64,000 nucleotides of DNA from Patescibacteria group bacterium (GTDB lineage Bacteria > Patescibacteriota > Minisyncoccia > Phycocordibacterales > UBA9973). The notes under the pieces are model-generated. The model was not told the origin of the DNA. It saw only the letters and a program-made list of their open reading frames with translations, and ran no database searches. Below, piece after piece: positions 3,064 through 43,637 of the stretch (position 1 is its first letter; each line of letters opens with the position of its first letter). Location of the stretch: positions 43,250 through 107,249 of the forward strand of contig JAZKBO010000006.1 of NCBI GenBank assembly GCA_040388575.1, in the 5' to 3' direction. The translations under genes were made by a program, and so were the position numbers.

Positions 3064-3083
3064 GTTGTTCTCCTTATCTCGGG

Positions 3084-3809: not shown

Positions 3810-3931
3810 GATTAGTCCTTTTCAATGTTCAAATTCATGCGCTTTAAGCCCCGCAGTTAGGCCGCCGATACTATCGGCTCTGCCGGTAGACTATCGCAAA
3901 ATTCATTTATAGTAAAGTATGAAAATTAGTT

Positions 3932-10516: not shown

Positions 10517-10537
10517 AAAATAATTTGCTAACTGTAA

Positions 10538-11602: not shown

Positions 11603-11608
11603 AAAAAA

Positions 11609-12049
11609 TTAGAGACTGCCGCCTTTGTACTGCTTGATAGCTTCCAACACCTTAGAATCACTCTTCATATTTTCCCAGAACAAAACTTTATCTTTTTCGA
11701 TAAACATCTGACCCTCCGGACCATGCAGCTCCCCGCCTAGTTGCACTAGTTGAATTTTCTGCTGTGGATTAGCAACTGGAACAGGGCTTTTGGCATCAGT
11801 GACCACGCCTTCTGGCTGCAGTGCATCTTTAGCTTCAAGATAATAAACGTCTTTTAAAACAATCCAGGAGCCAGATGTGGATAATTTACCAAAATAAGCC
11901 TGCCCGTTAGTTAGAAAAACTGCTTGATAGGAATTCTCATTCTGTGGAGAAAATAAACTACTACCACCGAAGAAAAAATAGAAGGCGCCTGCGCCGATAA
12001 TAATTATTAGTAATACTACCCATACTGACTTCTTTATTCTGTATTGCAT
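11609..12049 (-). CDS. Hypothetical N-terminally membrane-anchored small protein (146 aa).
   Basis: N-terminal TM 'VWVVLLIIIIGAGAFYFFF' followed by a soluble domain with no recognisable motif. It is embedded co-directionally between the dockerin-protein gene and the paralog array. Confidence 0.4.
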   Translation of the reverse strand: MQYRIKKSVWVVLLIIIIGAGAFYFFFGGSSLFSPQNENSYQAVFLTNGQAYFGKLSTSGSWIVLKDVYYLEAKDALQPEGVVTDAKSPVPVANPQQKIQLVQLGGELHGPEGQMFIEKDKVLFWENMKSDSKVLEAIKQYKGGSL

Positions 12050-14610: not shown

Positions 14611-14626
14611 ATATACTATTTTACCA

Positions 14627-16885: not shown

Positions 16886-16890
16886 ATTTC

Positions 16891-19552: not shown

Positions 19553-19740
19553 TTACGGGCTTGCACCTCCCCCACCGCCTGAGCCACCGCCACCTTGCGA
19601 GCCGCCGCCGCCGGAGCCGCCATTATCTCCCTGATCACCAGAGCCGCCAGAGCCGCCGCCAGAGCCGCCGCCGCCTTGAGAACTACCGCCGCCAGAGCCG
19701 CCGCCAGATGCTCCACCCCCGCCACCGCGTGAGATAAAAT
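19553..19740 (-). repeat. GC-rich simple-sequence tract (GGN/GCC codon repeats) encoding the poly-Gly/Ser C-terminal tail of the giant protein.
   Basis: ggagccgccgcc / gccaccgcc repeats. Locally far higher GC than the surrounding gene. Confidence 0.6.
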
Positions 19741-22700
19741 GCCAACAAGCAGAATCATTGCCACCTTGATTGTTAGAATGGTCATTGAAAGTAATTATGC
19801 CGGTACCATTAGCACAGCCGCTATCCATAACATCAACGAAGTCCATAATAACAGAACCGATCAAATTAAGATTCCACTGATTGCCTGGGGAATCAGAAGC
19901 TATCGAAATATGATTATTGGAATTACCAACTATATGTAATATTCCTGAAAAGCCGGTGTCCCTGGCATGTTTAAATTGCACCAGGGTGCTACCAGTTGTA
20001 TCGGTAAAGTCATTGAAGGTGGTCGCAGTTGATCCATCAATAGTAACAGCGGTACTTGGATTACTTGGCTCAATTATTACCGCCCCAGCGGCTGGATTGA
20101 AAATTCCATTATTTGTGAATCCTGTACCGGTCAATGTAATATTGTGGCTTCCGTTAGCATCTAAGGTTTGTGAAGCATCGATGATAATTGTTTTAGCCTT
20201 AGTGTTAGAGCCGAGGTTAAGCGTCGTTGCACCAGATCCTGCAGATATTTGAACATTTCCTAGATCTTCTGGGGTGCTATTTCCATCGGTAAGAGTCTGT
20301 GTCGTACCTCCGTTAAATACTGTAGTACCGGATCCTGCATGAATACTAGCGCCATTGGTGACAGTCAGGTTACCTTTTAGAGTTGTGTTGGTATTTGGTA
20401 ATGAATACGTACCTGAACCACCTAAGATAAGATGGTTGAATGTTGTTGGGGCTATAGTGGCTGTTGTGCCAGTATATTCTACGGTACCGGTTGAAGGTGT
20501 AAATGTTCCGGTAACTGAAAGTGGAGTACCAGTACCAGTGAGGGTTATAGTATTAGAACCATTAGCATCTAACGTTTGACTAGAATCAACTGCAATAGAA
20601 GTGGCCTTGATTGATGAGCCAAGTTGAGCAGTAGTTGGGACGCTACCTGGTGTCCAAGCTTCGACTTCAATCACACGACTATAACCAGTACTTCCTGACT
20701 CCTGTGTATCGTGAACTAGAACTCTGACCTTTGAAGTATGGACGTTTAATCCAGTTAGTTGAGTCCAAACATGATTATTATTTGTTATAGCTCCACCAGT
20801 AAATATCTGCCAAGCCGCACCGTCCCAATACTGTATATCAAAATCCTCAAGGCCAAAGTCGGTTGAAGTCATGCCGAGGGTTGGATCTGTTGGAGAGCTG
20901 AAGTTATCTTGCATGCCAAATACATCCATTTCACCGAGGGTATATGAGGTGTCGAAATCCACCTCTAACCAGTCATTACTAAAGTCGTTGATGGTATTGT
21001 CATTCCAACCACCATTGGTACCCCAGACATCACCCTTGCGGTTACCGTCATTGGCAAAAGCTGGTAAGTAGTTAGCGTCAAATGTAGTCGAACCTGAAGC
21101 TGTGCCACCATTACCCGAGGCAGCAACATTCGTTGGAGTGCCGGCAGCGCCTGAAATTTGTATATTACCTAGATCTCTCTTAGTGCTATTGTTATCTGTT
21201 ATCGCCTGAGTTGTTCCACCACTGAAGATAAGTGTACCGCCACCGCGAGTTATATTTGCTCCAGAGGTTATGACTAAATTGCCTTTGATGTTGGCATCAG
21301 TGCCTGGAGTGGTGTAGGTACCGGAGCCGCCAAGAGTAAGATTATTAAATGTTGCTGCAGTTACTGTAGCGCTAGAACCTGTATAAACTACTGTGGAAGA
21401 ATCGCGAGAAAATGTTCCGCTGACAGTTAGAGGTGTTCCAGAACCCGTAAGTGTTATTGTTGAGCCATTGGTAGTCAAGGCTCCCTTAGTAGTGATATTA
21501 ATGGAGCCTGCAGTTAAGGAACGATTTGATCCAGTTGTATCTAATATGTCATTACCGGTTGAAGATGCATTACCTATCGTCACGGCATTATTTACTACAA
21601 TATTCGCAGGAAGATTGTAAGTGGTAGCCGTAGAGTCAGAAGCTGTGCCCACGCCCAGGCCGCCGTAAGTGGTGTTTTCAATATCTGTAGTACTTGTTCC
21701 CTCATAATTTACTGTACCACTTGTAGCGGTGAGAGTTCCACCATTGTTGTACAGCGGTCTTGAAGTTGTAGTGCCGGAGCCTGTGAGTGAAATAGTATTA
21801 CTGCCTAGAGTTAAGACCTGTGATGCATCTATAGTAATTTTTGTAGCCTTAATAGATGAGCCCAAACTTAGTGTAGATGTTCCTGAATTTGCCGATATTT
21901 GAAGTAAGCCTAAATCACTATTTGTGGCGTTGCCGGTTATAGTTTGCGTACCGCCCCCGCCTTTGGCAAAAATTATTTTATTCGCTCCGGACTTGGTGAC
22001 AACTGTTCCAGTACTGACCAACATATCACCACGCAAAGTTATATTGGCTGATGGTAGAGTATATGTCGGTGTGCCAGATGCTGGAGTGAAAGAAAGATTA
22101 TTATATGTTGCCGCTGTGATATTTGTAGCTGATGTGCCAGCATACACTAATGTAGAGGCACCTGGAGTAAATGTGCCGCCCAGTGTAAGTGGATCACCAG
22201 AACCTGAAAGCGTAATAGTAGAACTATTCGGTGTAAGGGTAGATAATGTCGGGATTATAAGACTGCCAGCGGTAAGGTTATAATTGCTTCCAGTTGTATC
22301 GAGCACAACATAACCTTCATGTCCGGAAGTACCATCAGGTTGGAGATGTAACGTACTGGCTACAGAAGTTGTACCACCGAGGTTAAAAGTATTAGTGCCA
22401 TCAGACCATGCCTCTAATAAGATATTGTGGCCAACTGTAATGGCACCTAGGATGGTAAAGCTAGTATTAGCACTATTCGGGTAAAGTTCTAGATCATAAT
22501 AGTTTACCGCTTCCACACTTGTATTGCCTACTCCGTAATAACCAACCCATCCTGTTCCACCAGTAAATGTTCCGCTATTTATGAACGGCCTTGATCCAGC
22601 AGTGCCTGATTTATTTAAATACAAATTACCAGAACCCATGTTGAGCCCTCCAGAAGCGCCCACACTGAGTACATTCGATGAACCCATGTTAAGTGTCCTT

Positions 22701-25700
22701 GTAGATAGTAATAGGTTTCCTGCTGTAACAGTGACATTTCCACCCGGAGTAATATTGCCCGACATAGTAAAGTCTGGAGTTCCCGAGGCCGCGTTTATTA
22801 CAAGATTACCGTATGTCGCAGCCACTACGCTGGTTGCTGCAGTTTGCATATAAGTTACCGTCGAGCTCGCCCCATAAGTATATGTCGTGAAGCTTGCAGG
22901 ATATGCGGAAGTGCCCGACATTTCAAAGAAGGCACCGTTAGAGACTGTAAATGTTTTGCTAGAAGCGCCAGTTATTGCGGAACCCCCGTTCTTTAGGGTT
23001 CCTGCACTGACAGTTAAGTTCCCATCAGCAATTAAATTAGAAGCCAACGTCCAGACTCCGCCGGAACCGTTAAAGTTAACAATATTAAAATCTCCAACGC
23101 CATCGATGGAATCAACAACTTCGTTTGTGGTAGAAGTAAAATTAACTGTTGAACTTCCAGGATTGAAAGTACTATTGTTTTCCCAAGAACCAGAGATATT
23201 AAATGTTGCAGTCGAAGTGGCAGTTAAAGTTCCATCGATCAGTATATTGTGAGTACTTAAAATTTCTGATGAACCAATAGTAAAGGTGTCGGCTGATCCC
23301 ACCTCAATAGTTTCATCGGCGTAGGAATTAGAGCAACCCTTGACTGAAAGTGTGCTGGAAGCTACTGAATACATGACATCTTCATCATCGCTACAATCAT
23401 ACCCTGTCCCAGAAGTATTCATGTCGGTAAGAGTTAGCGACTGAAAATCGTTTAGTGAACCAATAGATATAACATTGGTATCAAGTATCATCGCTGTGAT
23501 GTCCCCTGTGCCGTCATACTTAGCCACTGCGGTAGACTCAGCACTGTCAGCTACGTTATCAAGCCAGACAGTGACTATTTGACCAGAACTTACGGTAACG
23601 TTTGAAATAGACCAGGCACTAGAAGCGGTAACACCACTTTGACCCGCAAGCACACCATTAACTGCAACTTTAACTACAATAACGTCTCCGGCATTTGTTG
23701 TTCCGGAAATCGTGATACCGCAGCCAACGAAAGTCCACGCATTACTGCCATTGTCAGTAGAACCATTGGCTGTAATAGAGCCTGCTTGATGATCGGCAGC
23801 TACGTTCCAGATAGTAACTGTTCCGCTGTTGGTCCAGGTTCTGGAGGAAGCTGCAGTAATAACTATGTCGTCCGTGCCTGCACAAACAGTGCTGCCATTA
23901 GCCTCAATAATAATAGTTCCTGAATTAGAAACATTGCCCGTAAGAGTAATGTCGCCAGTGCCGAGGTTAGACCAAGTGCCGCTCGCACCCACAGTGACAG
24001 CGCCTGTTGTTAAATTAAATGTGGCTCCCTGCGACAAAGTTCCGGTAGTTATGCCAAGCGCACCACTGACTGTTACATTACCTGTTTGAGTAAATGTCGG
24101 AGTACCTGAAGCGGCGGCAATAGTTAAATTATTGAAAGTTTCCGCGGCAATATCCGTAGTCGAAGTTCCGGCAAATACAACAGTACCCGTAGATTCAGTG
24201 AAAGAACCATTGTTCACAAATGGACGTGAAGTGCTAGTACCAGAGCCGGTGAGAGTTAAAGTATTAGAACCATTAGCATCCAAGGTTTGAGAAGAGTCAA
24301 CTATTATTTTGGTGGCTTTGATACTAGAGCCGAGGGCAAGGGTCGTGGATGAACCTCCACCACCAGCAAATCCCCCACCTTGTATTCTCCAATAGTCGCC
24401 ACTCCAACCAGTTACATCAGGATTAATATCTGTAGTCACTCCTTCATTATAAAGGAAGTGAAAAGTGTAAGCAGTTTCAGTTAATGCTTCAGTAAATCCG
24501 GATGGGGGTGTTATAGCTTGAGGGCTAGCAGTTGCCATTGCTAAGACGACAATGCCAGTTGATGGCATAGTAATCGTGCCGGGTGTTGCATGGCCTGCTC
24601 CAACAGTCACATTGTCGTTAGCTGAATAACCTTGAGCACTTCCAAGATTAGATACTTCCCAAACACCCACTACTCTATTTCCTGCTCCTGACCCTCCTCC
24701 CCATGAAGCCGTTACCACATCATTTACTGCACCATTAGTTGATGCGGTATAGAACATTTCCATAAAGTTGGCATTAGGGTCTGTGGTAGTGGTATGTTTT
24801 GCTCCCATCGAAGTAAATGTATCACCTGCCGTATTAGTAATTGTCGGATCACTCAAGCCTGTATCGCCAGCGTTGTACCATTGGACAAAGACAATAAGTC
24901 CGTTACCTGCGGTGTGAGTTTGTGCATTTGTGACTTGTGACCAAACGAAATAGCCACCGCCAGATCCATCTACGAAGTTTTGATATGTTGGCGATCCTCC
25001 TCCCCCGCCGGAAACCTCCAATATCCCCAAATCTTGTTTAGTGGTGTTGTTGTCGGTCACCGTTTGAGTTGTTCCGCCAGTTAAAATAATTTTATTCGAT
25101 GAGGATTTGGTAACTGTTGCCCCATTAGTTACAACCAAATTACCATAAAGAGTTACGTCTGATGCAGGCAATGTATATGTTCCTGTACCGCCTAAGGTTA
25201 GATTTCCGTAAGTTGCGGCTGTGATAGTAGGAGCAGTTTGTTTATACGTTACAGTCGAGCTAGCTCCATATGTATATGTAGTAAAGCTTGCAGGGTAGGC
25301 CGAAGTGCCAGACATTTCAAAGAAGGCGCCGTTAGAGACTGAAAAGGTATCAGTAGCTCCATTACCAGTAATAGAGAAGCCTCCATTTTTCAGAGTACCA
25401 TTTGGGATATCTATTGCAGTAGCACTAGCAGCATCAGTTTCTAAGTTTGCACCCAATGTCCACTCTCCCCCAGTACCGTTAAATTTAAGACGGTTAAAGT
25501 CAGATGAGCCTGAAAGAGTTCCACCGATTGTATGACCTGCATCAGTTGCTTCAAAAATTACCAGGCCAGAATTGTTGGTAAAGGTGCCGGAGTTGGAATA
25601 ATTTCCATAAAGCTCTAGTGTGCCAGAGGTTGAAGTAAAAGTACCGCCCGAGATGGTTAGGTCTATGGCGCTGATGCCACCCGAACCGCCGGTGAATGTA

Positions 25701-28700
25701 CCACCAGAAGAAATGTTACCAGTTGCCGTAATCACCCCAGAAGTTGTTTGCACTAAAGTTCCCGTCACGGTTACATTGTCCGTGGAGAGAGTTTCGGCTG
25801 ATCCAATTGTTAGAGTGTTGCCCGATTCGATTTGAATAGTTTCGTCAGCATACGAGTTACTAGTTGCGCCCACACAACTGTTGCCTTGTACTAATAAGGT
25901 ATTAGAGAAAACATTATACATGACATCCTCATCATCACTACAATCATAGCCAGTCCCCGTTGGATTCATGTCGGTAAGCGTTACAGACTGATTGTCTACG
26001 GAGCCAATAGAAAGAACATTAGTATTGAGAACTATTCCTGTCATGTTGCCCGAACCATCGTACTTAGCCACAGCTGTAGATTCCGCATTATCCGCCACAC
26101 CATCAAACCAGACTACTACTACTTGGCCAGACGTTACTGCTACGCTGCTGATTGACCAAGCTCCAGAAGAAGTTGAGCCTGTGGAACCGGATACTGAACC
26201 GTTCACTGCAACTTTTACAGTTAAACCATTCCCAGCATTTGTTGTTCCAGAAATAGTGATGCCGCAACCAACGAATGTCCAGGTTGTCCCTGTGCCTTGA
26301 GTTGAACTGTTGGCAGTAACAGAACCTGTTTGATGAATTGCATTCACGTCCCAAATGGTGAAAGTTCCAGCTCCTGACCAAGCTCGGTCAGTTGTGCCAT
26401 CACTCGTGGTAATAGTAATATCATCTGTGCCAGCAGTGCCACAAGAACTGTGACCATTCGCCTCTATAGTTATCACTCCTGAATTGCTAACACCTCCTGC
26501 TAGTGTTATGTCCCCTGTTCCAGTGTTAGACCAGATACCATGAGTGGCCACAGTAACAGCTCCAGATGCTAAGTTGTATGTAGCTCCTTCATCTAATGTG
26601 TGGTTACTGCCTGATGCGTTACCGATAGTGAGTGTTCCTGCTGCAGTAACATTTCCAGTTTGAGTGTAAGTCACTACATTGGCATCATTTTGAGTTCCGA
26701 TTTCAAGATTGCCATATGTGGCTCCCACTACCGAAGCTGCGGCAGTTTGTAAATATTTAGTGGTACTAGTGGAACCAAAAGTATATGTAGTGTAACTCGC
26801 TGGGTAAGCTGATGTGCCGGTCATGGAGAAAGTTGCGCCACTGGCAATGTTGAAGGTGTCAGTAGCGCCGTTACCAGTGATGCTGTAGCCACCTGTATCT
26901 AATGTTCCAGCTGAAAGGTTTAAGGCAGTGCCAGAGGCACCAGCTGTAATAATGTTGCCGCCTAAAGTAAATGTAGGAGTGCCAGATGCAGGAGCTAGAG
27001 AGAGATTACCGTATGTGGCTGCTACTACGCTAGTCGCCGCAGTTTGCTTGTATGTCACAGTCGAACTTGCCCCATATGTATATGTAGAAAAGCTTGCAGG
27101 GTATACGGAAGTTCCGGACATTTCAAAGAAGGCGCCATTGGATATCGAGAGAGTGTCTGTCGCGCCGTTACCAGTAATAGAAAAGCCACCGTTCTTTAGT
27201 GTACCTGCTGTTATAGCAAGAGCAGTAGCACTGGCTTTACTAACTTCTAGATTTGCACCCAGAGTCCACTCCCCGCCTGAACCGGAGAAATTAAGAATAT
27301 TGAAGTCTGAACTTCCAGACAGTGTGCCGCCGAGTGTGTGACCAGAGCCAGTAGCGGTGAAAGTGACTGTGCCGGAATTGTCAGTAAATGTTCCGGAGTT
27401 AGAATAGTCACCGCTTAAAGATAAGGTGCCTGAAGTTGAGGTGAATGTTCCGCCAGAGATTGTCAGGTTGACTGCACTTACTGCTCCGGAGCCTCCAGTG
27501 AAGGTACCTGAAGAGGAGATGTTACCAGTAGCTGTGATAGTGGCGGTGGTAGTTTGAACTAAGGTTCCTGCAAGTGTTAAGTCCTTGGTAGTGATGGAAT
27601 TTCCAGAGCTCTCAGTCAATGTCGCGCCCGAGAGAATATTTAAATTCTCGTCCGAATATGCACTGCCGGCATCGACGAGAAGCGTGCCGGAATTAGCACT
27701 ATGCATGATGTTAGCATTGTCATCATGGTCGTATTGTCCCAAGTTAGTTATGGAGAGTGACTGACTACCGTGCCCTATGGCAAGCACATGCTTGTTGAGG
27801 ACTACCCCCGTAACATTGCCGCTTGCATACTTTGTAACTGCGGTACCTTGATTAGCGGTTGTACCAGTATTCAGGAAAACAGTAATTACATCTCCAGCCA
27901 CAGGCGCTGGCACATCTGTTAGTGACCACGCACCGCTAGCAGTATTAACTGGAGTACCAGCGGTAGCAGTATTTACCGCAACTACAACTTGTATTCCATC
28001 CGCTACATCCGTGGTACCAGAGACCGTTATACATGATGATGAAAATGTCCAGCCATTGTTACTGGTATTGGTGGAGTTATAGGCAGTTATTGATCCAGTT
28101 TGGTAAGAAACCGATACATTATATATAGTGAAGGTCCCAGCTCCAGACCAATTACGTTGAACTGCCGCAGAAGAGCCAATAACAATATCATCCGCCCCAG
28201 TGCATGAAGTAGAGTTGTTGGATTTAATAGTAATCACACCGGCGTTGGAAACAGCCGATCGCAGCGTAATATCCCCTGTTCCGATATTAGACCAAGTACC
28301 ATTAGCGCCGACTGTTATACCATTAGCGTTTAAATCGTAAGATGCCCCTTGCGAGAAAGTTCCTTTTGTTATTGTCAGGACCCCAGCCCCCAATGTAGCG
28401 TTCGTTGCCAGGGTGACAGTGTCAGAATTATTTGTTTTATTAATAGTGATTATGCCACTGGTTGCAGTTCCGCCACTATTTGTATAAGTTTGCGCATTAG
28501 AGCCAGTGAAATTAAGAGGATAGTTTCCGCCATCACCACCTGCCGCAATAACCACATTACCTTGAGCTTCAATTGTACCAGTATTAATAAGACCGTCAGT
28601 TTGGGTAAATGTCCCTAAAACAATAAGCGTGTCTCCACTAGCAACAGTTGTGGTAAAGCCGCCCGCACTAGCCATATTTAAATTATTAAACGTCTCCGTA

Positions 28701-31700
28701 GTAATTACATCCCATGTAGCATTTCCATAAAAACCGGAGCCCGCCACAGTTCCGCTATTGTGGTTAAATGTTCCTCCGGCAGTATGCGTCCAGGCACCGT
28801 TAACTGTAAGTGTTCCAGAAGTTGAAGTGAATGTACCAGAAGTTAAAGTAAAACTGTCTATTATTAAATTTCCTGTCACGCTGACAATACCTGAAGCTTT
28901 GTTGATATTTAATGAACCAAGCAACCCGCCGCTTGCGGTTATGGCTTGGTCCCCAGTTTGAGTAAGGCTGATAGTTGCATTACAGTTTAGAGTTGTATTT
29001 GAACCGACAGTTATTCCTGCCCGAGCATCTATGGTACCCACATCGATGCACCCTTGTGTGCTGGTGAATGTACCCAGCACCACAAATGTATCACCCGAGC
29101 CCATTGTCGTAACGAATCCACCAGCATTATTTATAGTAAGATTATTAAAAGTCTCGGAAGAATTTACATCCCAAGTGTTAGCTCCGTTGGCACCGTTCCC
29201 AACCTTAACTGTACCCGAGTTATGTGTGAAAGTTCCACCAGCTGTATGCGTCCAGTTGCCAGCAACTTGCAAGTTACCGCTCGTCGAAGTAAATGCACCA
29301 GCAGTTTCAGTAAAGTTACCAGTGATAGTTACATTACCCGAGCCGCCTGTAAATGTACCAGATGTTGCGAGGTTGCCGCTGACGTTAATAGTGGCAGTAG
29401 TAGTTTGCACCAAAGTCCCAGAAATTGTTAGATCGCCGCCGGTGGTTAAGCCGCCCCCGGAACCTATAGTAAGAGTGTCGCCAGATTCAATTTGTGCGGA
29501 AGCAGTAGAAAGGTTACTACAGCCCGAACCAGGCGCCGCGAAAGTTTGAGAAGTAACGGAATAAATAATATCCTCATCATTGTTGCAATCATAAGTATCC
29601 AGGTCACCCATTGTTAATGACTGATCATCTACCGAGCCTACAGAAACAACTCCTGCATTTAGGATCATGCCTGTCATACTGCCAGTGCCATCATATTTAC
29701 CTACAGCATTAGCTTCCGAAGCATTAGCTACGTTATCTATAAACACAACGACTCTCTGACCTATTGTCGGAGCTGTGTTTGGAGTAATAGTCCAAGCACC
29801 GGAAACAATCGAGCCAACAGCACTGTCTAGTGATCCATCAATAGCAACTTTAATTACATTACTTTGATCAGCTTCATTTGAAGTTCCAGAAACAACTATA
29901 CATACTGTAGCAAAAGTCCAACCGTTGTTACTAGTGTTAGTAGAGTCATAGGCGGTGACTGTACCTGTTTGATACGACACCGATACATTATTTATTGTAA
30001 ATGTTCCTGCCCCGCTCCAAGTACGTTGGACTGCAGCTGATGAAGCAATAACTATGTCATCAGTTCCAGCACAAGCTGTAGAGTTGTTTGATTTTAAAGT
30101 AATGGTACCAGCATTGGCAACATTGCCACCGAGAGTTATATCGCCTGTACCAGTGTTGGCCCAAGTAGCAGACGCAGCGATGGTAAGCGTACTGCCCGTG
30201 GTCAAGTTATATGTAGCACCTTCGTCGAGGGTTACCGCATGCGTTCCGTCCCCCACCGTTACTGCGCCGTTAGCGGTAACGTTGCCGGTAAATGTATAAG
30301 TTGGACTGCCGGAAGCTGGCAAGAATGACAGCACTTGGTAAGTAGCCGCAGGAATATTTGTAGCGCTCGTGCCGGTGAAGGAGACAGTGTTAGTCCCCGA
30401 CGGCGTAAACGTACCGCCGATAGATAATGGAGTACCAGAGCCAGAGAGGGTTAGCGTGTTTGATGTTGGCGAGAGTGTGCCAGTAACTGTAAGTACATGG
30501 GACACAGTAAAGTCAGTATTAGCAGTAGAAGTACCTGCTGCGACAGTTAGATCATAAAATGAAAGTAGGGTGCCAGAGTTTGAAAGTGTAGCAGTAGTTA
30601 ATGTGATGGCGCTAGAGGATGATGCAGTGAAGCTACCGGTGGAGCTATTGGTCAAAGTTCCATCAATGGAGAAGTTGGAAGTAGTAGTGACAGTAGCACC
30701 GGAAGCAACGGTTAAGTTAAAGAAGGTTGGCGCTGAACCTGAAGTAGATATAGAAGAGCCGTTGTTTAAGGTGATGGTTCCTGCACTCGGCACAAAAGCT
30801 GCACTAGTGGTGAGCGCGCCACCAACAGTAGCGGTAGTGGAAGCAGTAATTGCAGCACTGATAGTTAAATTCTTAAATGTGGTATTTGTAATCGTGGCAC
30901 CAGAGTTAGAATATGTGACAGTGTTAGTTCCAGAAGGTGTAAATGTACCACCGATAGACAGTGGTGTACCAGATCCGGAAAGTGTGATGGTACCTGAAGA
31001 CGGAGTAAGTGTGCCAGTAACTGTTAGCACATGGGAAACTGTATAGTTAGTATTAGCAGTTGTCGTGCCGGTGCCAATTGTTAAATCATAGAAAGAAAGC
31101 AAAGTGCCACCGTTACTGATAGTTCCAGCTGTTGAGGTAATGGCACTAGCAGATGAGGCTGTAAAGGAAGCACTGGTGCCGTTAGTGAAGGTGCCGGTAA
31201 AACTAAAATTGCTGGTGGTGGTAACGGTCGCGCTGGATGCGGTGGTTAAACTTACAAATGTGAGTGTACCCGAATTTACTATTGATGAACCGGTATTGAA
31301 AGTTATCGTGCCCGAGCTTGGCGTGAAAGTTCCGGAGACAGTGAACGCGCCACCTACTGTAGCCGAGTTTGCGCCGGTAGAAATTGATCCAGAAACTTTC
31401 AAGCCACTATACGTTGTATTAGTTAAAACCTGTCCGGTGCCGGCATAGTCCACCGTCAAGTTAGTTAGAGTTTTAGTTGTGATAGTGTACTGCGATGCAA
31501 AGTCTGCGGTGGCCGCAGTACGAGTAACTTTGACAGTTCCTGATCCAGTTAGAGTTCCAGCACCCGAGATAATATCCGCAGCTGCGGGAGTGAATGTTCC
31601 GCCTCCATTGTTTACCGTGAAAGTCCCAGCTACTGAAAAGTTACCACTACTTGTTACCGCCGCACCTGAGGCAGTGGTTAAATTATTAAAAGCCAGCGTC

Positions 31701-34700
31701 GCGGAATTAGCAATTGAAGCACCGTTGTTAAATGTCACCGTACCACTATTGTGAGTGAAAGTACCAGATGCTCCTAGAGTAAATATTCCACCTATTGTCA
31801 GAGTTCCAGAAGTAGAAGTAAATGTACCGCCTGAAATATTTGTATTGACTGCACTGATAGCGCCCGATCCTCCGGTGAATGTACCGGTTGAAGCTATATT
31901 ACCGCTGACAGAGATAGTGGCTGTGGTTGTTTGGACTAGAGTACCACCAATAGTTAAGTCCCCTCCCGTTGTTATTGACCCGCCGGAACCATCGGTGAGC
32001 GTAGTGCCCGACAAAACATTTAATGCGGCGGAAGCATAATTACTACAACCCGTGCCGGGTGCAGCAAAAACTTCAGAGGCCACAGAATAAACCACGTCCT
32101 CATCATTATTACAATCATATGTGTCCAGGTCAGTCATGGAGAGTGACTGGTTGTCTACGGAGCCCACGGTAACTACGCCGGCATTGAGGACCATCCCAGT
32201 AATGTCGCCCGTGCCGTCGTATTTAGTAACAGCAGTAGACTCTGAAGCACTTGAGGCAATACCGTCAAGGAATACCACTACCCTCTGGCCAGTGGTGGGT
32301 GCTGTAACTAATGTGATAGTCCACGCATGTGATACGATGGAGCCGCTCGCACTGTCCACTGCGCCATTCACTGCTACTTTGACTACGCTGGCTTGATCAG
32401 CTTCATCAGAAGTACCGGAAACAACAACTACTATACAACCTTCCGTCCAGTTACTGTTTGAAAATGTAGATTTTTCTGCGGCTAATGCGCCTAGCATGTC
32501 AGTGACACTCAAATTTCTTAAAATAAATATACCAGCTCCGGACCATGTACGCTGCGTACCACCGGAAGATGAAGTTAGCACAATATCATTAGCACCATCA
32601 ACACAAGATGAGCCATTGTTTGAATTTAGTGTTATGGTTCCAGCGTTAGAAACATTGCCACCGAGAGTTAAGTCACCTGTACCTATGTTAGAAAAAGTTC
32701 CTGAAGTATTTACAGTAATTGTACCCGTAGTAGTTAGCGTAAAGGAAGCTCCTTGGCTGAAAGTTGCATTGGTGGTGACCACCAGGTTTGTCAACTTAAT
32801 ACTTGAAGCCATGTTTACCACTTTCGCTACCGAGCCGTCACCCACAGTGAGGCTACCCAAATCCGGATTCCCGGAGTTGCTGGTAATAGTCCGGGTATTG
32901 GCACCACTGTTCATAGTAATGACGCCTGCACCCTTGGTCCAGGTGGCGCTCGTACCGATGGTTAAGTTCCCGCCCAAGTTAATAGCGCCGCCGTTAGCCG
33001 TAAAAGTTCCACTACTTCCTCCGCCCACCGTAACATCTCCAGTCACCGATAATGCAGCCGAGGAACTTGCAGCAAATGTGGCGCCATTGGCTACAGTCAT
33101 AGTGCCTGTAACATTCATAATAGGATCATTAGTATCCGCAGTAGCGCCCGCATTAGTAGCATTACCCACTGTGAGGTTGTGCGTGACTGTCAGAGTTTCA
33201 CTGGTAGTAGTACAAATAGTTTGCGCAGAAGTGCTGGAGGGATAAAGTTGGAGGTCGTAATAGGAAAGAGTTGTGCCATTCTGTGAGCAGGCAATGGTTG
33301 CTCCATCACCCGTAAACTTTGTCGTGTTTCCGCTAGTGGCGGTAAATATGGCATCGCTGGTAATACTAAGGGGTGTCGAGGTACTAGATAAAGTTAAAGT
33401 TCCACTTCCAGTAGTAAAAGTCGCACCAAACCCTGCCACACTTAATGACGATGCAGTAATGTTACCACCGTTGCCTGTAAAACTTCCGTTATTATTAGTT
33501 CCTAATGTAATTGAGCCAGTAACATTGAGCGCTGCACTGGAACTCCCTACGAAGTCGGAGAGCTTAGTAATAGTTAGATTCCCTCCAATATTAATGATTG
33601 GGTCATATGTATCTGCTGTTGCTCCAGGTGAACCGAAATTACCGACATTCATGTTATGCGTGACAGTCAGAGTTTGGCTCGTCCCAGTGCAAAGATTCAT
33701 ATCTGTACCCGTGCCAACTGGAAGACTAAGATCGTAATACGAAATTCCAGTACAAGTTACATTTCCTCCGCTCCCAAAATATTTAACCAGGCTTCCAGAA
33801 CCCACATTGAAAATTCCAGAGATACTTAAACCCGTACCAGTCGATCTTAGGTCGAGCTCCGCCCCTACATCTAAATTATATGTCACTCCACTACCGATAG
33901 TAAGAGTGCCGTCTACCTCGAAACTACTTGGTGTGGTATAACTCATAGTGCCTGCCGTGGAAAAAGTCATATTATTGGCAACTCTATTAAAACCTATTGA
34001 GCAAGTGACTGTCCCGCTTCCAGTAAAACTCAGATTATAGTAGCCAGTATTTTTACAGGTTGGGCCTGCGGCAGTAAAAGTTATCGTGTTCGCGTTCGAA
34101 AGAGCATTAAGTGTTCCTGCACCGCTGTTACCTAAAATAGTTGCTGATCCATAACTTAAAGTGGAGTTCGTGCCTTGAGTCCAGCCGCCAGTGAACGTCA
34201 AAATACCTGTGACGGTGACAGTTCCAGTATTACTATTTGTTGTAGTGCCGCTCGATACCGTCAATGCTCCCGCAAAAGTGATCGCTCCTGAACCTGATAA
34301 ATCCCCCACTAATGCCGCAGCGCCAGTGCCCGTCTTCATTTCATTCGCGCTGTTGTTGGCGATACCTGCACCAAAGCTCGTGGCGTGTGTGCCTGCCGTG
34401 ATATCAAATGTCGCCCCTGCAGCTACTGTAACTGCTCCGGTAAATGTGTAGGTGCCTGTAGAGCCTGCACCATTAACTGAAATAGAACCGCTCGTGCCCC
34501 CGCCCACGGTGGTAGCTCCACCGACAGTAATCGCATTATTGTCGAGGGTAAGAGTAGCGCCATTAGCTATGCTTAGTGTGGCGGTGCCCGAAAGAGTAAT
34601 AGTCGGATCATTAGTAGCCGCCGATGCGCCCGCATGAGTAGCATCTCCAACTGTAAGACTGTGCGTGACCGTCAGAGTCTGACTGCCAGCTGTACATAGT

Positions 34701-37069
34701 ACTTGAGCAGTGGAACTAGATGGATAAAGTTGAAGGTCGTAATAAGAAACACTTGAACAAGCTATTGTTGCACCATTACCGGTATATTTTATTGTAGCAC
34801 CTGAAGTTACAGTAAAAGTATTACTGATTACGAGTGGTGTGCCTGTGTTCGAAAGCGTTAACGTTCCCGAACCTGTCACATATGTACAGCCGGCACCTAC
34901 AGTTAGAACTCCTGCAATACTATAACTTTCATTGCTGGTGGTGCTACTGACTGTCGGTGTACCGCCGTTAGCGTTACTACAAGTTAAGTTACCGGCAACA
35001 GTAATCGATGCGGGCATTTGAAATGTGGGCGAGGTACTAGCTGGTTTAAAGAAAAGATTTCCATAAGTGTCGCCACTTGTTAATGTGAAGCCAGTAGTAA
35101 TGTTGTTATATTCAACAGTACTATTACTTTCAAAAGTTTTTGTGAGCGATGTTCCAGTTGGTAGACCGTCACCACCAGTATTTGTCATTTTAAATGTAGC
35201 ACTGTTTTTAACCGTGAAGGTTTTACTGTTGGCCATTCCTATTGCCAGAGCATTGTTTAAGAAAATTGCTGCAGTGTTGCTATCGTCACCTACTGTTATA
35301 TTTCCTGTAACGTTATTACTCGTAATAGTAGCGTTGAGTGTCGCTCCTGTTGAAGTAGTGTCTATTACTAAATTGTTGTACGCACCAGCTCCAGGCATAT
35401 AAACAATTTGCGCAGATGTATCTATATAATTAAAGTTTGCACCCGAAGTTCCCATTGTGAATGTAAATCCAGCAGCACCTGTTCCACTGTTCGTGGCTAT
35501 CGCACCTTTTAGATTAAAGTTACCCGCACCTCCTGACATATCGATAATGTGAGCCGCCGCAGTAGTGTTACCCGTGCCTGAGCCAGTTGTGATACCACCG
35601 TTCGCGTTGATAGTACCGGACGTAACAGTTATACTTACAGGCCTAGTGGCGGCGCTAGTATTCATGATGATTTGACCAGTCACAGTTAGTATTCCCTGCC
35701 CAACGCTGTATGTATTCGTATTAGTTCCGGAACTACCCCCAATGAACGTGGCGGTACCTCCAACGCTTAACACAGCATTACTGTTCGTATTCAAATCTAG
35801 CTTTGTCGCACCGTTACCTTGCGCATCGGTATAGTTATTTGTCACAGTAACAGTCGTGCTCGCACCAACAGTGAAAGTTCCCGCGACAGCACTTGAGGTA
35901 AGCGTGCTAAAAGTGGTATTACCAACCACTGTCGGCGCAGCACCGGAAAATGTAGTCGTAAATGCGCCAGTCCACGAACCAGTTGTGTTGTTGTTAACGA
36001 AAGTAGTAGTACCTGTGGCTGCAACTGTTTGAGCTATACCAAGCGTCACTACAGCCCCACTGTTGATTTGAACTTTACCCCAAGTAACAGTTTTGTTTAA
36101 AGTTGCGTTTCCAGTAAATATTGCTATAGATGTAGCAGCAAAAGATGTTGTACCAGAGTTATTCATCGTTCCTGCCATATTGAAAGTTCCAGCTCCGGAA
36201 ATTGTAAGCTGTGCCTGCGCGGCAGTACCTGAAAAAGTTACGCCAGAGGTTGTAGTAATCGTTCCACTTGTTGCACTAACAATAGCAGCCACTGTTCCAC
36301 CCACAATAGAAATACCTGCAGCCGAAATTAAACCACCAGTAGCAGTAACGTTAGCTGTTCCAGCAGTACTACTCGTAACTGTTAAAGTTCCTCCTGCGAC
36401 GATTCCTGTGGCATTTGTGGTCACTGACAATGTTGCGGCAGAAACACTTCCACCCGTAACTGATATCGCGCCAGTGGCAGTAACCTTACACGCACCCATT
36501 GTTATACCTGCAGTGCCGCCAGAAGCAGTCGAACTTCCAGTAATACTTATAGTTCCATTCGCTGGAGTTCCGTTTCCATTTACAACTATGCCTCCTGCGC
36601 CGGAACAAGTCGTTCCGCCAACACCAGTAATCAAACTGTTGAATGCAACTGTGGGAGCACTCATTACCAAACTACCAGTAGTGAGAAGTCCTGTTCCTTG
36701 AATATTTACAGTTTTTGCTCCACTTCCAGTGTTGTCTACAGTAAATGCACCAGTTAATGTAAGTGATCCGCCAGTTGAAATAGTTAATCCTCCCGCGCCA
36801 CCAGCTCCGGAAATAGTAACACTCGCTGCCGCATCAGTAGTACCAAGGGTTGGAGTAAATGCGCCGATTGTTACCGTATCTCCAGCTTGAGGATATGGTG
36901 AGCCTGTACCTTCATGGCAAGTCGTCCAAGTTGAGTCAGTTCTCCATGCAGTACTTGCAGCTGCAGCACAACTATCAGCCGATGCGGAATTTGTATTGCC
37001 AAAAAAAATAAAGCCCGCTACGAAAAGTACAGCGGAAAATTTTATTATTTTTGGCAGGCTAAATTTCAT
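19553..37069 (-). CDS. Giant secreted surface protein (5838 aa). Thr/Gly/Ser/Ala/Asn-rich beta-helix or adhesin-like repeats, at least 5 diverged supermodules, a discoidin (F5/8 type C)-like domain near the C-terminus, and a poly-Gly/Ser tail.
   Basis: Single uninterrupted 17.5 kb ORF. Signal peptide '[31 protein letters not shown]'. Recurrent supermodules '…WSGAGTFTI(x)[10 protein letters not shown](V/I)TA… KVA(V/I)(N/D)G… KYDGTG.MTG… TYDCNNDED(V/I)(V/I)YSV' (5 copies) and '[34 protein letters not shown]' (4 copies). Discoidin-like segment 'LPAFANDGN…[22 protein letters not shown]…[12 protein letters not shown]'. C-terminal '[25 protein letters not shown]…'. Confidence 0.8.
20640..21140 (-). 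other. Discoidin / F5/8 type C (CBM32-like) carbohydrate-binding domain inside the 5838-aa protein (approximate coordinates).
   Basis: Translated segment '[65 protein letters not shown]…[15 protein letters not shown]…[25 protein letters not shown]' follows the discoidin pattern (ANDGN…W…WL.VDL…I..V… Y.I.Y…W). Confidence 0.55.
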
Positions 37070-37077
37070 TCAAGTAA

Positions 37078-38133
37078 TTAATTACAATTTGCAGGCGGTG
37101 TTGAAGACGCTGATAATACACCGTCATTTGCAGTAATATAAGTAACTCCCGATCCGTCGCTGTCGCCCATGATAATGCATCCAGGGTTTCCACTAGCACT
37201 ACCTAAATGAACGGTTGTACTATTGTCACCGGAAAAATTACTAACATTAGATAATACGGAAAAAGTACCTCTATGGCCTGTCCCATGAACAGCACCTATT
37301 ATTATTTGAGCATCACCAGAGTTTGCAGAACCATAGGCATCTCCAGTAGACAGAATAAATTGACCACCATGTCCACCACTGATTGTGCCTGTTGCTGCAC
37401 CAGCAGCTATACTAATGTTGCCCCCATACTGGTCTCCGCTTCCAGTACCAATTTGCATTGAGCCTCCATCGCCGGACACTATACCTCCGCTTCCAGTACC
37501 AATTTGCATTGTGCCCCCAATACCCGTTCCAGCACCGGCGTTACCTGCCAAAAACAATACATTACCTCCGTTAGAATTATTATTTCCCTCCCCTGAAACA
37601 ATTCTAACGGCTCCACCATCCTGATTTGGAGTTGTGGAAGTAAGAACATTTAAATCCATTCCATCTTGTGAAAAATTCACTGTGCTAGCTTTTACTTTAA
37701 GCTGTCCTGCACTTCCAGTTATCTGTCCTTGAATATTTAAATCACCCCCTATATACGCATCCCCCCCGTTATCCAAACCACCGATAAATAATACGTCGTT
37801 TACTTCATCCCAGTTCAAATTATTACTTTGAGCAAAAACGGATCCATTAAAAAATGGAATTGCACCAACTTCAAATCCTGATGCATCTAGTCCTAAACCA
37901 CCTCGATTTGGCGCAAGCAGTCCATTCCATCCCAAGGTATGGGTAGTACCCGATGAAATTATTTTTAAATTGGTATCGTTCACAAAAGTCTGATCTGCTG
38001 TATTTAGACCATTTAGAGTTTTGATCATTGACGCTGCCTGAACGCTAGACATAGGCAAAATAGTAATTGCTAATGCAACCAGAAACAATTTTTTATATGC
38101 TTTCATGAAATTTTTAAAAACTTTAAGAAACAT
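37078..38133 (-). CDS. Secreted glycine-rich repeat protein.
   Basis: 351 aa. Signal peptide (…SSVQAAS). The Gly/Thr/Ser/Asn-rich body has the near-tandem repeat 'MQIGTGSGGIVSGDGGSMQIGTGSGDQYGG', reflected in a ~48-bp nucleotide repeat near 37440..37540. C-terminal Cys pair. It sits 8 nt upstream of the giant gene. Confidence 0.6.
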   Translation of the reverse strand: MFLKVFKNFMKAYKKLFLVALAITILPMSSVQAASMIKTLNGLNTADQTFVNDTNLKIISSGTTHTLGWNGLLAPNRGGLGLDASGFEVGAIPFFNGSVFAQSNNLNWDEVNDVLFIGGLDNGGDAYIGGDLNIQGQITGSAGQLKVKASTVNFSQDGMDLNVLTSTTPNQDGGAVRIVSGEGNNNSNGGNVLFLAGNAGAGTGIGGTMQIGTGSGGIVSGDGGSMQIGTGSGDQYGGNISIAAGAATGTISGGHGGQFILSTGDAYGSANSGDAQIIIGAVHGTGHRGTFSVLSNVSNFSGDNSTTVHLGSASGNPGCIIMGDSDGSGVTYITANDGVLSASSTPPANCN

Positions 38134-41277: not shown

Positions 41278-41300
41278 GTTAATAATATGAATTAATAATT

Positions 41301-43613: not shown

Positions 43614-43637
43614 TATAATTTATATTAATTAATAATT

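What the first reader, a model, noticed from the sequence alone, without database searches (positions are those of the whole stretch)
19553..37069. 5838-aa secreted giant protein built from diverged supermodules, with a discoidin-like glycan-binding domain
A single 17.5 kb ORF, one of the largest bacterial gene sizes. It is composed almost entirely of T/G/S/A/N-rich beta-strand-like repeats ('TGSGTLTLS…TFTV'), suggesting a long beta-helix or fibre. It contains at least 5 diverged copies of a roughly 600-800-aa supermodule that includes a possible small beta-sandwich ('[12 protein letters not shown]…KVA.NG…GQRVVVF.D…KYDGTG') and an invariant 'TYDCNNDED' motif. A discoidin/F5-8-C-like domain sits near the C-terminus, and a poly-Gly/Ser tail follows. 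It carries no dockerin, so it is probably anchored differently (by the N-terminal signal/anchor or through partners). Its position between the two dockerin-protein triplets suggests it belongs to the same surface apparatus, perhaps as the attachment fibre of an episymbiont.
Basis: partly seen in the sequence, partly recalled or inferred. Interest (0 to 1): 0.65.

Follow-up and report, generated by a model that had tools for sequence, protein, structure and literature searches.

The report
Giant segmented beta-helix surface fibre
A real 17.5 kb gene of an ultra-small Patescibacteria bacterium encodes a 577 kDa secreted protein predicted to form a fibre roughly 100 nm long, made of beta-helix rods with a sugar-binding-like domain near its far end; it most likely serves cell attachment and belongs to a large uncharacterised family, but that function is inferred, not shown.

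Summary
The ORF is real: window 19553-37069 (-), 5838 aa, no stops. It is identical to NCBI MES2315751.1, a hypothetical protein from a Patescibacteria MAG.

- **Junction modules.** Five diverged junction modules interrupt the rods. Each has a cap, an Ig-like sandwich and a YD-x3-DED loop. The motif is family-conserved, but it is not invariant as 'TYDCNNDED'.
- **Discoidin call.** This holds at superfamily level only. Pfam scores are below threshold, close homologues pass, and all top Foldseek hits are F5/8-C or CBM32.
- **What is absent.** There is no dockerin, cohesin, transmembrane anchor or LPXTG motif.

New findings:
1. The junction module defines a family of at least 1147 clusters, many of them giant proteins. 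No Pfam or NCBIfam model covers it.
2. 18 of 177 relatives, like this protein, end in poly-Gly-x-[S/T/A]-Pro.
3. Five other loci carry a family-type giant next to the same cassette: a dockerin protein followed by membrane-anchored cohesin proteins.

Best reading: a Sec-exported, lectin-tipped adhesion fibre tied to a cohesin-dockerin surface system. Function and anchoring are inferred. It is a new variant of a known kind, of moderate interest.

The parts
19553..37069 (-). G1: complete 5838-aa ORF (576.5 kDa, pI 4.2), including the stop codon
   Evidence: identical to MES2315751.1
36977..37069 (-). Signal peptide, aa 1-31. It has Lys residues in the n-region, a hydrophobic core and an A-S-A motif before D32
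   Evidence: Read directly from the sequence. It is the only hydrophobic segment apart from one weak internal one. Homologue P0114 has the same N-terminus. Cleavage is inferred; no predictor was run
32858..36976 (-). Rod 1 (aa 32-1404): T/G/S/A/N-rich beta-solenoid repeats with internal repeats around aa 690-1400
   Evidence: The fold is inferred by analogy with the modelled rods
31715..32857 (-). Junction supermodule 1 (aa 1405-1785): cap, Ig-like sandwich, YDCNNDED loop and the start of the next rod
29195..30322 (-). Junction supermodule 2 (aa 2250-2625). This is the modelled copy (pLDDT 88, pTM 0.80)
27350..28462 (-). Junction supermodule 3 (aa 2870-3240), with a degenerate motif, YDHDDNAN
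25535..26692 (-). Junction supermodule 4 (aa 3460-3845), motif YDCSDDED
24365..24997 (-). 'Island' (aa 4025-4235): a non-repetitive insert of unknown fold, flanked by Gly runs
   Evidence: No Pfam, NCBIfam, PDB or homologue match
23105..24142 (-). Junction supermodule 5 (aa 4310-4655), motif YDCSDDED
20630..21118 (-). Discoidin / CBM32-like (galactose-binding-like) domain, aa 5318-5480
19724..20062 (-). Conserved C-terminal beta-helix cap (aa 5670-5782) with a Cys pair (C5752/C5775) and a GNN..CW motif
   Evidence: Alignment with P0001, P0004, P0017, P0037, P0101, P0103 and P0120. pLDDT above 90
19556..19723 (-). Gly/Ser-rich tail (aa 5783-5838) ending [12 protein letters not shown]
   Evidence: The same ending occurs in 18 of 177 relatives
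37078..38133 (-). X: 351-aa secreted Gly-rich protein, 8 nt upstream of G1 on the same strand and probably co-transcribed
   Evidence: no family match
12133..19524 (-). A1, B1, C1: three paralogous proteins, each with an N-terminal hydrophobic anchor and a C-terminal type I dockerin, immediately downstream of G1
11609..12049 (-). S: 146-aa single-transmembrane protein, conserved directly after the giant in Saccharibacteria locus L002 (55 % identity)
10538..11602 (-). D: signal peptide, Big_6 Ig-like domain and a dockerin-like C-terminus. It is a conserved neighbour of family giants
7019..10516 (-). E, F, H: three proteins, each with a signal peptide, a cohesin domain and a C-terminal transmembrane helix. 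They form the conserved cassette with D

Best explanation
G1 is most likely a Sec-exported cell-surface fibre of a Patescibacteria bacterium.

**Shown**
- G1 is an intact 5838-aa ORF.
- It has an N-terminal signal-peptide-like segment.
- It has 18 closely spaced Cys pairs.
- Two segments are predicted with high confidence as right-handed parallel beta-helix.
- There are five junction modules, each made of a helix cap, an Ig-like sandwich of about 100 aa and an acidic YD-x3-DED[IV] loop that leads into the next rod.
- A galactose-binding-like (F5/8-C / CBM32-type) domain lies about 360 aa from the C-terminus.
- A conserved C-terminal cap is followed by a poly-Gly/Ser tail ending ASP-COOH.
- Gene neighbourhood with a dockerin protein and membrane-anchored cohesin proteins recurs in other loci.

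**Inferred**
- The rods stack end to end into a segmented fibre of the order of 100 nm. This assumes about 4800 helix residues, about 24 residues per coil and 0.48 nm per coil.
- The lectin-like domain and the unknown 'island' domain bind glycans or other surface molecules of a host cell or substrate.
- The fibre is held on the producer's surface by non-covalent contact with the products of the neighbouring cohesin-dockerin cassette (D, E, F, H). This contact could involve the conserved C-terminal cap and tail.
- The six dockerin proteins A-C dock on the same membrane-anchored cohesins.
For: - **ORF integrity and identity:**
- **Sandwich:** weak Foldseek matches to S-layer and pilin Ig-like domains.
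- **Lectin-like domain:**. At the same position, relatives P0001, P0004 and P0017 carry LamG_3 and/or DUF2341 (P0017: DUF2341 only) instead. This makes it a swappable binding module.
- **Family size:** the junction-module profile finds 1147 clusters (196 at E<=1e-30), many of 2000-7000 aa, with 1-10 modules per protein.
- **Synteny:** the D-E-(F)-H cassette lies downstream of family giants in L002, L013, L024 and L026, and downstream of a giant-like beta-helix ORF (cut at the locus end) in L029.
- **Literature context:** a dockerin-domain protein and lectin-like envelope proteins are essential for epibiotic growth of a cultured Patescibacterium (PMC10633639). Giant dockerin/discoidin proteins of Omnitrophota have been proposed as attachment proteins (bioRxiv 10.1101/2023.11.21.568195).
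Against: - There is no experimental or expression evidence of any kind.
- Only about 15 % of the protein was modelled. The rest of the helix is extrapolated from composition and internal similarity.
- Sequence periodicity is weak and irregular.
- The discoidin-like segment is below Pfam thresholds, and its model has low confidence.
- No anchoring device was found in G1: no transmembrane segment, LPXTG, dockerin or cohesin.
- The proposed contact with D, E, F or H is untested.
- The cassette is not universal. It is absent within 10 kb of the giants in L025, L003, L005 and L006, and present without an adjacent giant in L028.
- The A-B-C triplets are not conserved neighbours.
Confidence: 0.65

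Rival explanations
1. G1 is a scaffoldin. On this view the five repeated sandwich modules are cryptic cohesin-like docking sites, and they carry the six neighbouring dockerin proteins along the fibre.
For: - G1 has five repeated beta-sandwiches.
- It is flanked on both sides by dockerin-protein triplets.
- The conserved acidic loop could bind Ca2+.
Against: - No Pfam cohesin signal was found in any piece of G1.
- Foldseek hits for the sandwich are Ig-like, pilin or S-layer domains, not cohesins.
- Genuine cohesin domains exist in E, F and H next door.
- Relatives with the same module usually lack adjacent dockerin triplets.
Confidence: 0.07
2. G1 is a structural envelope or matrix protein, such as an S-layer-like coat, sheath or biofilm matrix fibre. 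It would have no specific adhesive role.
For: - Foldseek gives weak matches of the sandwich to SlaB and Sap S-layer domains.
- The protein is very large, acidic, low in charge and rich in Thr/Ser, as many envelope proteins are.
Against: - The architecture is a long rod with a single lectin-like domain near one end.
- Relatives swap in other lectin-type domains at that position (LamG_3, DUF2341). This is typical of adhesins rather than lattice-forming proteins.
Confidence: 0.12
3. G1 is a beta-helix enzyme that acts on polysaccharides, such as a lyase, epimerase or esterase, carried on a long stalk. The CBM32-like domain would target the substrate.
For: - CBM32 modules usually accompany glycoside hydrolases.
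Against: - No catalytic family was detected by Pfam or NCBIfam in any segment.
- No conserved catalytic motif was identified.
Confidence: 0.08
4. The giant ORF is an assembly artefact or a decaying pseudogene.
For: - The protein's cluster has one member on one contig.
- The gene is repetitive.
Against: - A 5838-codon open frame has a chance probability of about 1e-140.
- The DNA repeats are diverged, at most 86 % identical over at most 300 nt.
- Independent assemblies hold relatives of 5000-7000 aa.
- The domain order ends with the family's canonical cap and tail.
Confidence: 0.03

Closest known systems
Tapirins of Caldicellulosiruptor (beta-helix cellulose adhesins; PDB 6n2c, 6n2b)
   Different: Sequence identity is only 13-17 %. 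The solved tapirin structures are single C-terminal beta-helix domains of about 355-410 residues. They have no junction modules, no CBM32-like insert and no poly-Gly tail. Homology was not shown.
Autotransporter passenger domains and TpsA exoproteins (Pet, Hbp, pertactin, Hap, FHA, HMW1, HxuA, EtpA)
   Different: G1 has no C-terminal beta-barrel translocator and no N-terminal TPS domain (no Pfam hit). The organism is a Patescibacterium. The secretion route is therefore different.
Dockerin-type giant proteins of Omnitrophota (bioRxiv 10.1101/2023.11.21.568195)
   Same: Both are giant predicted extracellular proteins of ultra-small bacteria. Both carry discoidin (F5_F8_type_C) domains and are associated with dockerins. 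Both are proposed to attach to host or prey.
   Different: The Omnitrophota proteins are at least 30,000 aa. They carry the dockerin and thrombospondin repeats themselves, have C-terminal transmembrane and SecA-like regions, and are predicted to form antiparallel beta-helix tubules. G1 has none of these; its dockerins and cohesins sit on separate neighbouring proteins.
Cellulosome-type cohesin-dockerin systems (anchoring scaffoldins)
   Same: The locus encodes seven dockerin-bearing proteins and three cohesin-domain proteins.
   Different: - G1 itself has neither module.
- The cohesin proteins carry a single cohesin and a C-terminal transmembrane helix, rather than SLH or sortase anchoring.
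- No glycoside hydrolase family was detected on the dockerin proteins.
F5/8 type C (discoidin) / CBM32 galactose-binding-like domains
   Same: - Foldseek matches include Factor VIII C2, NanJ CBM32, the chitosan-binding module, CASPR2 discoidin and lectinolysin (probability 1.0, target TM-score 0.5-0.72).
- Homologues at 42-54 % identity pass PF00754 and PF22633.
   Different: G1's own scores are below both gathering thresholds. The model confidence is low in this region. No ligand-binding residues could be assessed.
Giant repetitive RTX adhesins such as MpIBP and LapA (from general knowledge; not tested here)
   Same: The design principle is the same: a very long extender with ligand-binding modules near the C-terminal end.
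   Different: Those extenders are made of tandem Ig-like (BIg) domains. They are secreted by a type I system with an RTX signal and are retained in an outer membrane. G1's extender is beta-helical and Sec-dependent.

Membership tests
F5/8 type C / NedA-like galactose-binding domain (PF00754 / PF22633; CBM32) | The sequence reaches the Pfam gathering score | tested here: not met
   PF22633 scores 25.1 bits against a cutoff of 27.8. PF00754 scores 20.2 bits against a cutoff of 28.2. The E-values (2.7e-5 and 6.7e-4) are suggestive
F5/8 type C / NedA-like galactose-binding domain (PF00754 / PF22633; CBM32) | Close homologues belong to the family | tested here: met
   P0002 (two copies, 42-43 % identity) and P0005 (54 %) match PF00754 (best E 3.6e-11) and PF22633 (best E 7e-8)
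F5/8 type C / NedA-like galactose-binding domain (PF00754 / PF22633; CBM32) | Beta-sandwich (jelly-roll) fold of the galactose-binding-like superfamily | tested here: inconclusive
   All 50 listed Foldseek hits scored probability 1.0 and were nearly all of this superfamily, with target TM-score 0.5-0.72. However, E-values are only 1e-3 to 1e-2 and the region's pLDDT is 34-76
F5/8 type C / NedA-like galactose-binding domain (PF00754 / PF22633; CBM32) | Binds a carbohydrate or other ligand | not testable with these tools
   Needs a glycan array or ITC with the recombinant domain
Type I dockerin (PF00404) | Two Ca-binding loop-helix repeats (D-x-N-x-D-G-x-I-x-x-x-D) | tested here: not met
   No Pfam hit in 10 overlapping pieces. 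The regex found none in G1 but found them in all of A1-C2
Cohesin / scaffoldin (PF00963) | Cohesin domain detectable by sequence or fold | tested here: not met
   No Pfam hit. Foldseek neighbours of the sandwich are Ig-like, pilin or S-layer domains. The positive controls E, F and H are detected
Autotransporter (type Va) | C-terminal beta-barrel translocator domain | tested here: not met
   The C-terminus is a beta-helix cap plus a Gly/Ser tail. No Pfam or NCBIfam hit
Two-partner secretion exoprotein (TpsA) | N-terminal TPS (haemagglutination activity) domain and a TpsB partner gene | tested here: not met
   No Pfam hit in aa 1-614. No TpsB-like gene was seen among the neighbours scanned
Sortase-anchored surface protein | C-terminal LPXTG motif, then a hydrophobic segment, then a basic tail | tested here: not met
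   No LPXTG-like motif near the C-terminus and no C-terminal hydrophobic segment
Right-handed parallel beta-helix (pectate-lyase-like fold) | Three-stranded coils stacked into a right-handed solenoid | tested here: met
Uncharacterised 'cap-sandwich-YDxxxDED' giant protein family (defined here) | At least one junction module matching the A1 profile | tested here: met
   Five copies in G1. 1147 clusters match at E<=1e-3, and 122 of 169 proteins matched by the profile (of 177 retrieved) carry at least one full sandwich module. The motif is conserved as Y 78 %, D 88 %, D 78 %, E 60 %, D 83 %

The most novel reading that the evidence does not exclude
G1-type giants, the small transmembrane protein S, the dockerin adaptor D and the membrane-anchored cohesin proteins E, F and H may together form a previously undescribed Patescibacterial surface attachment organelle. 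In this reading, transmembrane-anchored cohesins hold dockerin-bearing enzymes and adaptors. The fibre would be fixed to the cell, or processed, through a new C-terminal signal: a poly-Gly run ending x-[S/T/A]-Pro-COOH. This ending occurs after at least three different last domains in the family.
Probability: 0.25. Interest if true: 0.75.

Novelty: new variant of a known kind. Interest (0 to 1): 0.5.

Why it matters
Patescibacteria make up a large share of bacterial diversity, and the cultured ones live attached to host cells. The molecules that make the contact are largely unknown. In the one genetically tractable species, adhesins, a dockerin protein and lectin-like envelope proteins are essential (PMC10633639).

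This locus offers three concrete, testable things:
- a fibre of about 0.58 MDa with a swappable lectin-like module;
- a widespread but unannotated junction module that could be turned into a family model, allowing more than a thousand 'hypothetical' giant proteins to be annotated;
- a recurrent pairing with membrane-anchored cohesins and a conserved C-terminal poly-Gly-xSP ending, which together suggest how such fibres are mounted on a cell that has no outer membrane.

If this reading is wrong, the result is simply one more large repetitive surface protein.

Tried and rejected
- **Pfam on large pieces.** Scans of 3000-aa halves and 600-aa pieces gave essentially nothing. A local phmmer search even missed G1 when queried with its own segments. 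HMMER's composition filter therefore suppresses hits on this protein, and 'no hit' on large pieces is weak evidence. Short segments were scanned separately.\n- **Island (aa 4025-4235).** No homologue, no Pfam or NCBIfam family, no PDB relative. A resemblance I saw by eye to the penultimate domain of A1 and C1 was not supported (BLAST E 2.3; hhalign probability 0.8 %).\n- **Cap homology.** The idea that the internal cap of each supermodule is homologous to the C-terminal cap got only weak support (hhalign E 0.014, probability 3 %). The single-protein scan gave only 3 loci.\n- **Other checks.** No tRNA genes in the window. The promoter/terminator scan around the G1 start was no better than shuffles. 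No literature was found on cohesin-dockerin cassettes next to giant proteins in Patescibacteria.

Full report
**1. The observation**

The window holds a single ATG-initiated ORF at 19553..37069 on the minus strand. It is 5838 aa long with no internal stop. At the window's base composition, an open frame of this length has a chance probability near 1e-140.

The translation is identical to a deposited protein, MES2315751.1. That entry is named 'MAG: hypothetical protein V4486_03405 [Patescibacteria group bacterium]' and sits on a 114.6 kb contig. The flanking genes fit such an organism: DUF5671, pyrF, pyrD, a short YchF and a sigma factor.

Other features of the protein:
- Composition is T 18.5, G 14.5, S 11.9, A 9.5 and N 8.0 %.
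- Only 7 % of residues are charged, and the predicted mass is 576.5 kDa.
- DNA-level repeats inside the gene are diverged, at most 86 % identical over at most 300 nt. Repeat collapse during assembly is therefore unlikely.
- Read-level support could not be checked.

**2. Anatomy**

*N-terminus.* Residues 1-31 look like a Sec signal peptide, with a Lys-rich n-region, a hydrophobic core and A-S-A before D32. This is the only strongly hydrophobic segment apart from one weak internal one. There is no C-terminal transmembrane segment and no LPXTG motif.

*Cysteines.* The 36 cysteines fall into 18 pairs spaced 17-60 residues apart. This is what one expects of disulfide-stapled extracellular modules.

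*Repeats.* Self-comparison and alignment define five diverged copies of a core of about 375 aa. They lie at aa 1405-1785, 2250-2625, 2870-3240, 3460-3845 and 4310-4655. They are 45-66 % identical and spaced 587-853 aa apart.

The five copies read YDCNNDED (twice), YDHDDNAN and YDCSDDED (twice).

*Other elements.*
- A non-repetitive 'island' at aa 4025-4235, flanked by Gly runs.
- A discoidin-like segment at aa ~5318-5480.
- A conserved cap at aa 5670-5782.
- A 56-residue Gly/Ser tail ending GGGGGASP.

**3. Fold**

*Model 1.* An AlphaFold2 model of copy 2 (aa 2250-2625) used an MSA of the five copies plus 18 relatives. It reached mean pLDDT 88 and pTM 0.80 and is all-beta. Short strands recur every 6-8 residues on both sides of a block of about 100 residues and 9-10 strands. 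Foldseek against the PDB found nothing at E<=1e-3. The weak matches were of two kinds: beta-helix proteins (an ice-binding protein, Ag43) and Ig-like domains of S-layer proteins and pilins.

*Model 2.* The model of aa 5290-5800 has pLDDT above 90 for the last rod and the C-terminal cap. It reaches only 34-76 for the discoidin-like part.

*Conclusion on fold.* The rods are right-handed parallel beta-helices of the kind used by surface adhesins.

*Length estimate.* Sequence periodicity is weak (2, 6-8 and about 21-25 residues), so the solenoid is irregular. Take about 4800 helical residues, about 24 residues per coil (counted from the strands of model 2) and 0.48 nm per coil. The fibre would then be of the order of 100 nm. 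This is an extrapolation from two modelled segments covering about 15 % of the protein.

**4. The discoidin-like domain**

- *G1's own scores.* On its own the segment scores below Pfam's thresholds. PF22633 gives 25.1 bits against a cutoff of 27.8 (E 2.7e-5). PF00754 gives 20.2 bits against a cutoff of 28.2.
- *Homologues.* The closest homologues are P0005 (54 % identity) and two copies in P0002 (42-43 %). They do match PF00754 (best E 3.6e-11) and PF22633 (best E 7e-8).
- *PDB profile search.* A profile of these sequences gives weak PDB hits. They are domains of a beta-galactosidase (E 1.3e-4), the CASPR2 discoidin domain and Factor VIII C domains.
- *Structure search.* Despite the low model confidence, all 50 listed Foldseek hits scored probability 1.00. 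Nearly all were F5/8-C, CBM32 or related galactose-binding-like domains, with target TM-scores of 0.5-0.72.

I accept the assignment at superfamily level. The name 'discoidin' and the glycan-binding function remain inferences. At the equivalent position, relatives P0001, P0004 and P0017 carry LamG_3 and/or DUF2341 domains (P0017: DUF2341 only). This suggests a slot for exchangeable binding modules.

**5. The family**

*Size.* A profile of the five junction copies, searched against 1.84 billion cluster representatives, found 1147 proteins at E<=1e-3 and 196 at E<=1e-30. Many are 2000-7000 aa long.

*Module counts.* In the 177 sequences retrieved, the profile matched 169, and 122 of these carry at least one full sandwich module. 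Most have one to three, G1 has five, and P0011 (7038 aa) has ten.

*Motif conservation.* Over 177 module copies the motif is conserved as Y (78 %), D (88 %), x3, D (78 %), E (60 %), D (83 %), then I or V. Cys at the third position occurs in only 23 %.

*Annotation status.* No Pfam, NCBIfam or PDB sequence relative covers the module, the cap, the rods or the N-terminus. Named members are called 'hypothetical' or, in one case, 'Fibronectin type III domain protein' from a Parcubacteria genome.

*Taxonomy.* A pattern scan of species-representative genomes found the cap-plus-sandwich module in Saccharibacteria, Omnitrophota, Melainabacteria, Planctomycetia and Archangiaceae MAGs, and the sandwich part in a Gammaproteobacteria-labelled and a Patescibacteria-group MAG. 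The modules are therefore not confined to Patescibacteria.

**6. The C-terminus**

The cap is conserved in P0001, P0004, P0017, P0037, P0101, P0103 and P0120. It contains a Cys pair and a GNN..CW motif.

Independently of the cap, 18 of 177 retrieved family members end in a Gly run followed by x-[S/T/A]-Pro at the very C-terminus. Examples are GASP, GGSP, GESP, GGTP, GETP and GAAP. This ending follows at least three different last domains. It also occurs in a Saccharibacteria genome (L002).

I know of no described sorting signal of this form, and no transmembrane segment accompanies it. I record it as a conserved feature of unknown function.

**7. Neighbourhood**

*The dockerin triplets.* G1 is followed by A1, B1 and C1. 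The second giant, G2 (46304-62437, 5377 aa, unrelated to G1), is followed by A2, B2 and C2. All six are paralogues, 29-62 % identical. Each has an N-terminal hydrophobic anchor and a type I dockerin above Pfam threshold.

*The conserved cassette.* The more informative neighbours lie further downstream:
- S, a small transmembrane protein (11609-12049).
- D (10538-11602), with a signal peptide, a Big_6 domain and a dockerin-like end.
- E, F and H (7019-10516), each with a signal peptide, a cohesin domain and a C-terminal transmembrane helix.

*Cohesin assignment.* It is supported by PF00963 hits in 7 of 11 aligned members (best E 1.4e-11). H's domain is above the gathering score when scanned alone.

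*Recurrence.* The D-E-(F)-H order recurs directly downstream of family giants in L002 (Saccharibacteria, where S is also present at 55 % identity), L013, L024 (Patescibacteria) and L026. In L029 it lies about 2 kb downstream of a giant-like beta-helix ORF that is cut by the locus end. In L028 the cassette is present without a giant within reach. Several giants (L025, L003, L005, L006) have no cassette within 10 kb.

The association is therefore recurrent but not obligatory. The A-B-C triplets are specific to this genome.

**8. Mechanism**

*Shown.* The ORF, the signal-peptide-like N-terminus, the predicted fold of two segments, the module repeats, the family and the synteny.

*Inferred.* G1 is exported by Sec and forms a segmented beta-helical fibre. 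Its lectin-like domain, and perhaps the island, bind surface glycans of a host cell or substrate. It is retained on the producer through the cohesin-dockerin proteins encoded next to it, possibly via the conserved C-terminal cap and tail.

*Context from the literature.* Tn-seq in the cultured Patescibacterium Southlakia epibionticum found adhesins, a dockerin-domain protein and lectin-like envelope proteins to be essential for epibiotic growth (PMC10633639). Giant dockerin/discoidin proteins of Omnitrophota have been proposed as attachment devices (bioRxiv 10.1101/2023.11.21.568195).

I put about 0.65 on the adhesion-fibre reading. The specific anchoring route is much less certain.

**9. Rivals**

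- *Scaffoldin, with the sandwiches as docking sites.* This is disfavoured. The sandwiches show no cohesin signal, and true cohesins sit next door.
- *Structural coat or matrix protein.* This cannot be excluded.
- *Stalked polysaccharide enzyme.* The only support is generic fold matches.
- *Assembly artefact.* This is very unlikely.

**10. Verdict**

Structure and context fit it, but function is untested.

Giant beta-helical adhesins are a known kind. What is new here is the junction-module family, the poly-Gly-xSP ending and the recurrent pairing with membrane-anchored cohesins. I rate it a new variant of a known kind, interest 0.5.

Noticed in passing
window 7019-12049 (-); also L002 13400-18498, L013 14484-20197, L024 9159-11007, L026 24133-27605, L028 7041-11314, L029 5546-11368: A conserved cassette recurs next to giant beta-helix genes in several Patescibacteria loci. 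It consists of a small transmembrane protein, a Big_6 + dockerin protein, and two to four proteins each built as signal peptide + single cohesin + C-terminal transmembrane helix. I found no description of it in the searchable literature.
   Followed up: partly
window 19556-19723 (-); relatives P0001, P0004, P0013, P0015, P0017, P0023, P0029, P0032, P0037, P0041, P0042, P0052, P0058, P0093, P0101, P0103, P0120: The extreme C-terminus is a poly-Gly run followed by x-[S/T/A]-Pro-COOH in 18 of 177 family members. It follows at least three different last domains and has no transmembrane segment. It may be a new sorting, processing or anchoring signal.
   Followed up: partly
window 46304-62437 (-): A second giant ORF (G2, 5377 aa) is unrelated to G1 by BLAST. 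It has LVIVD repeats (E 2.2e-23) near aa 4270-4900. Its Pro/Thr-rich C-terminus contains two copies of a Cys-bounded motif, [20 protein letters not shown]. It is also followed by three dockerin paralogues.
   Followed up: partly
window 38247-39008 (+); L026 9077-9913 (-): A long HSP20 / alpha-crystallin gene (253 aa) lies divergently between two giant genes, both here and in the unrelated metagenome locus L026 (38 % identity). It may be a dedicated chaperone for the giant proteins.
   Followed up: no
window 12133-19524 and 39019-46259 (-): Six paralogous proteins of 750-877 aa each have an N-terminal hydrophobic anchor, an unassigned domain of about 570 aa and a type I dockerin. The penultimate domain of A1 and C1 also occurs inside a Saccharibacteria giant relative (P0103 aa 1005-1219, E 2.5e-5). 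In A2, a domain of about 170 aa in the same position matches the giant-like ORF of L029 at 33 % identity (E 2.8e-10).
   Followed up: partly
window 37078-38133 (-): A 351-aa secreted Gly-rich protein (X) ends 8 nt before the G1 start codon. It has no family match in Pfam or PHROGs and is probably co-transcribed with G1.
   Followed up: no
window 62575-63351 (-): A lamin-tail-domain (LTD, PF00932, E 1.6e-12) protein with a C-terminal transmembrane helix lies just upstream of G2.
   Followed up: no
window 24365-24997 (-): The 211-aa 'island' inside G1 has no detectable relative in 5.8 billion proteins, Pfam, NCBIfam or PDB sequences. It may be an orphan binding domain.
   Followed up: partly
G1 as a whole (method note): HMMER-based scans of large pieces of this T/G/S-rich protein return nothing. 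A local phmmer search even fails to report G1 when queried with its own segments. Standard annotation pipelines will therefore under-annotate this family.
   Followed up: yes
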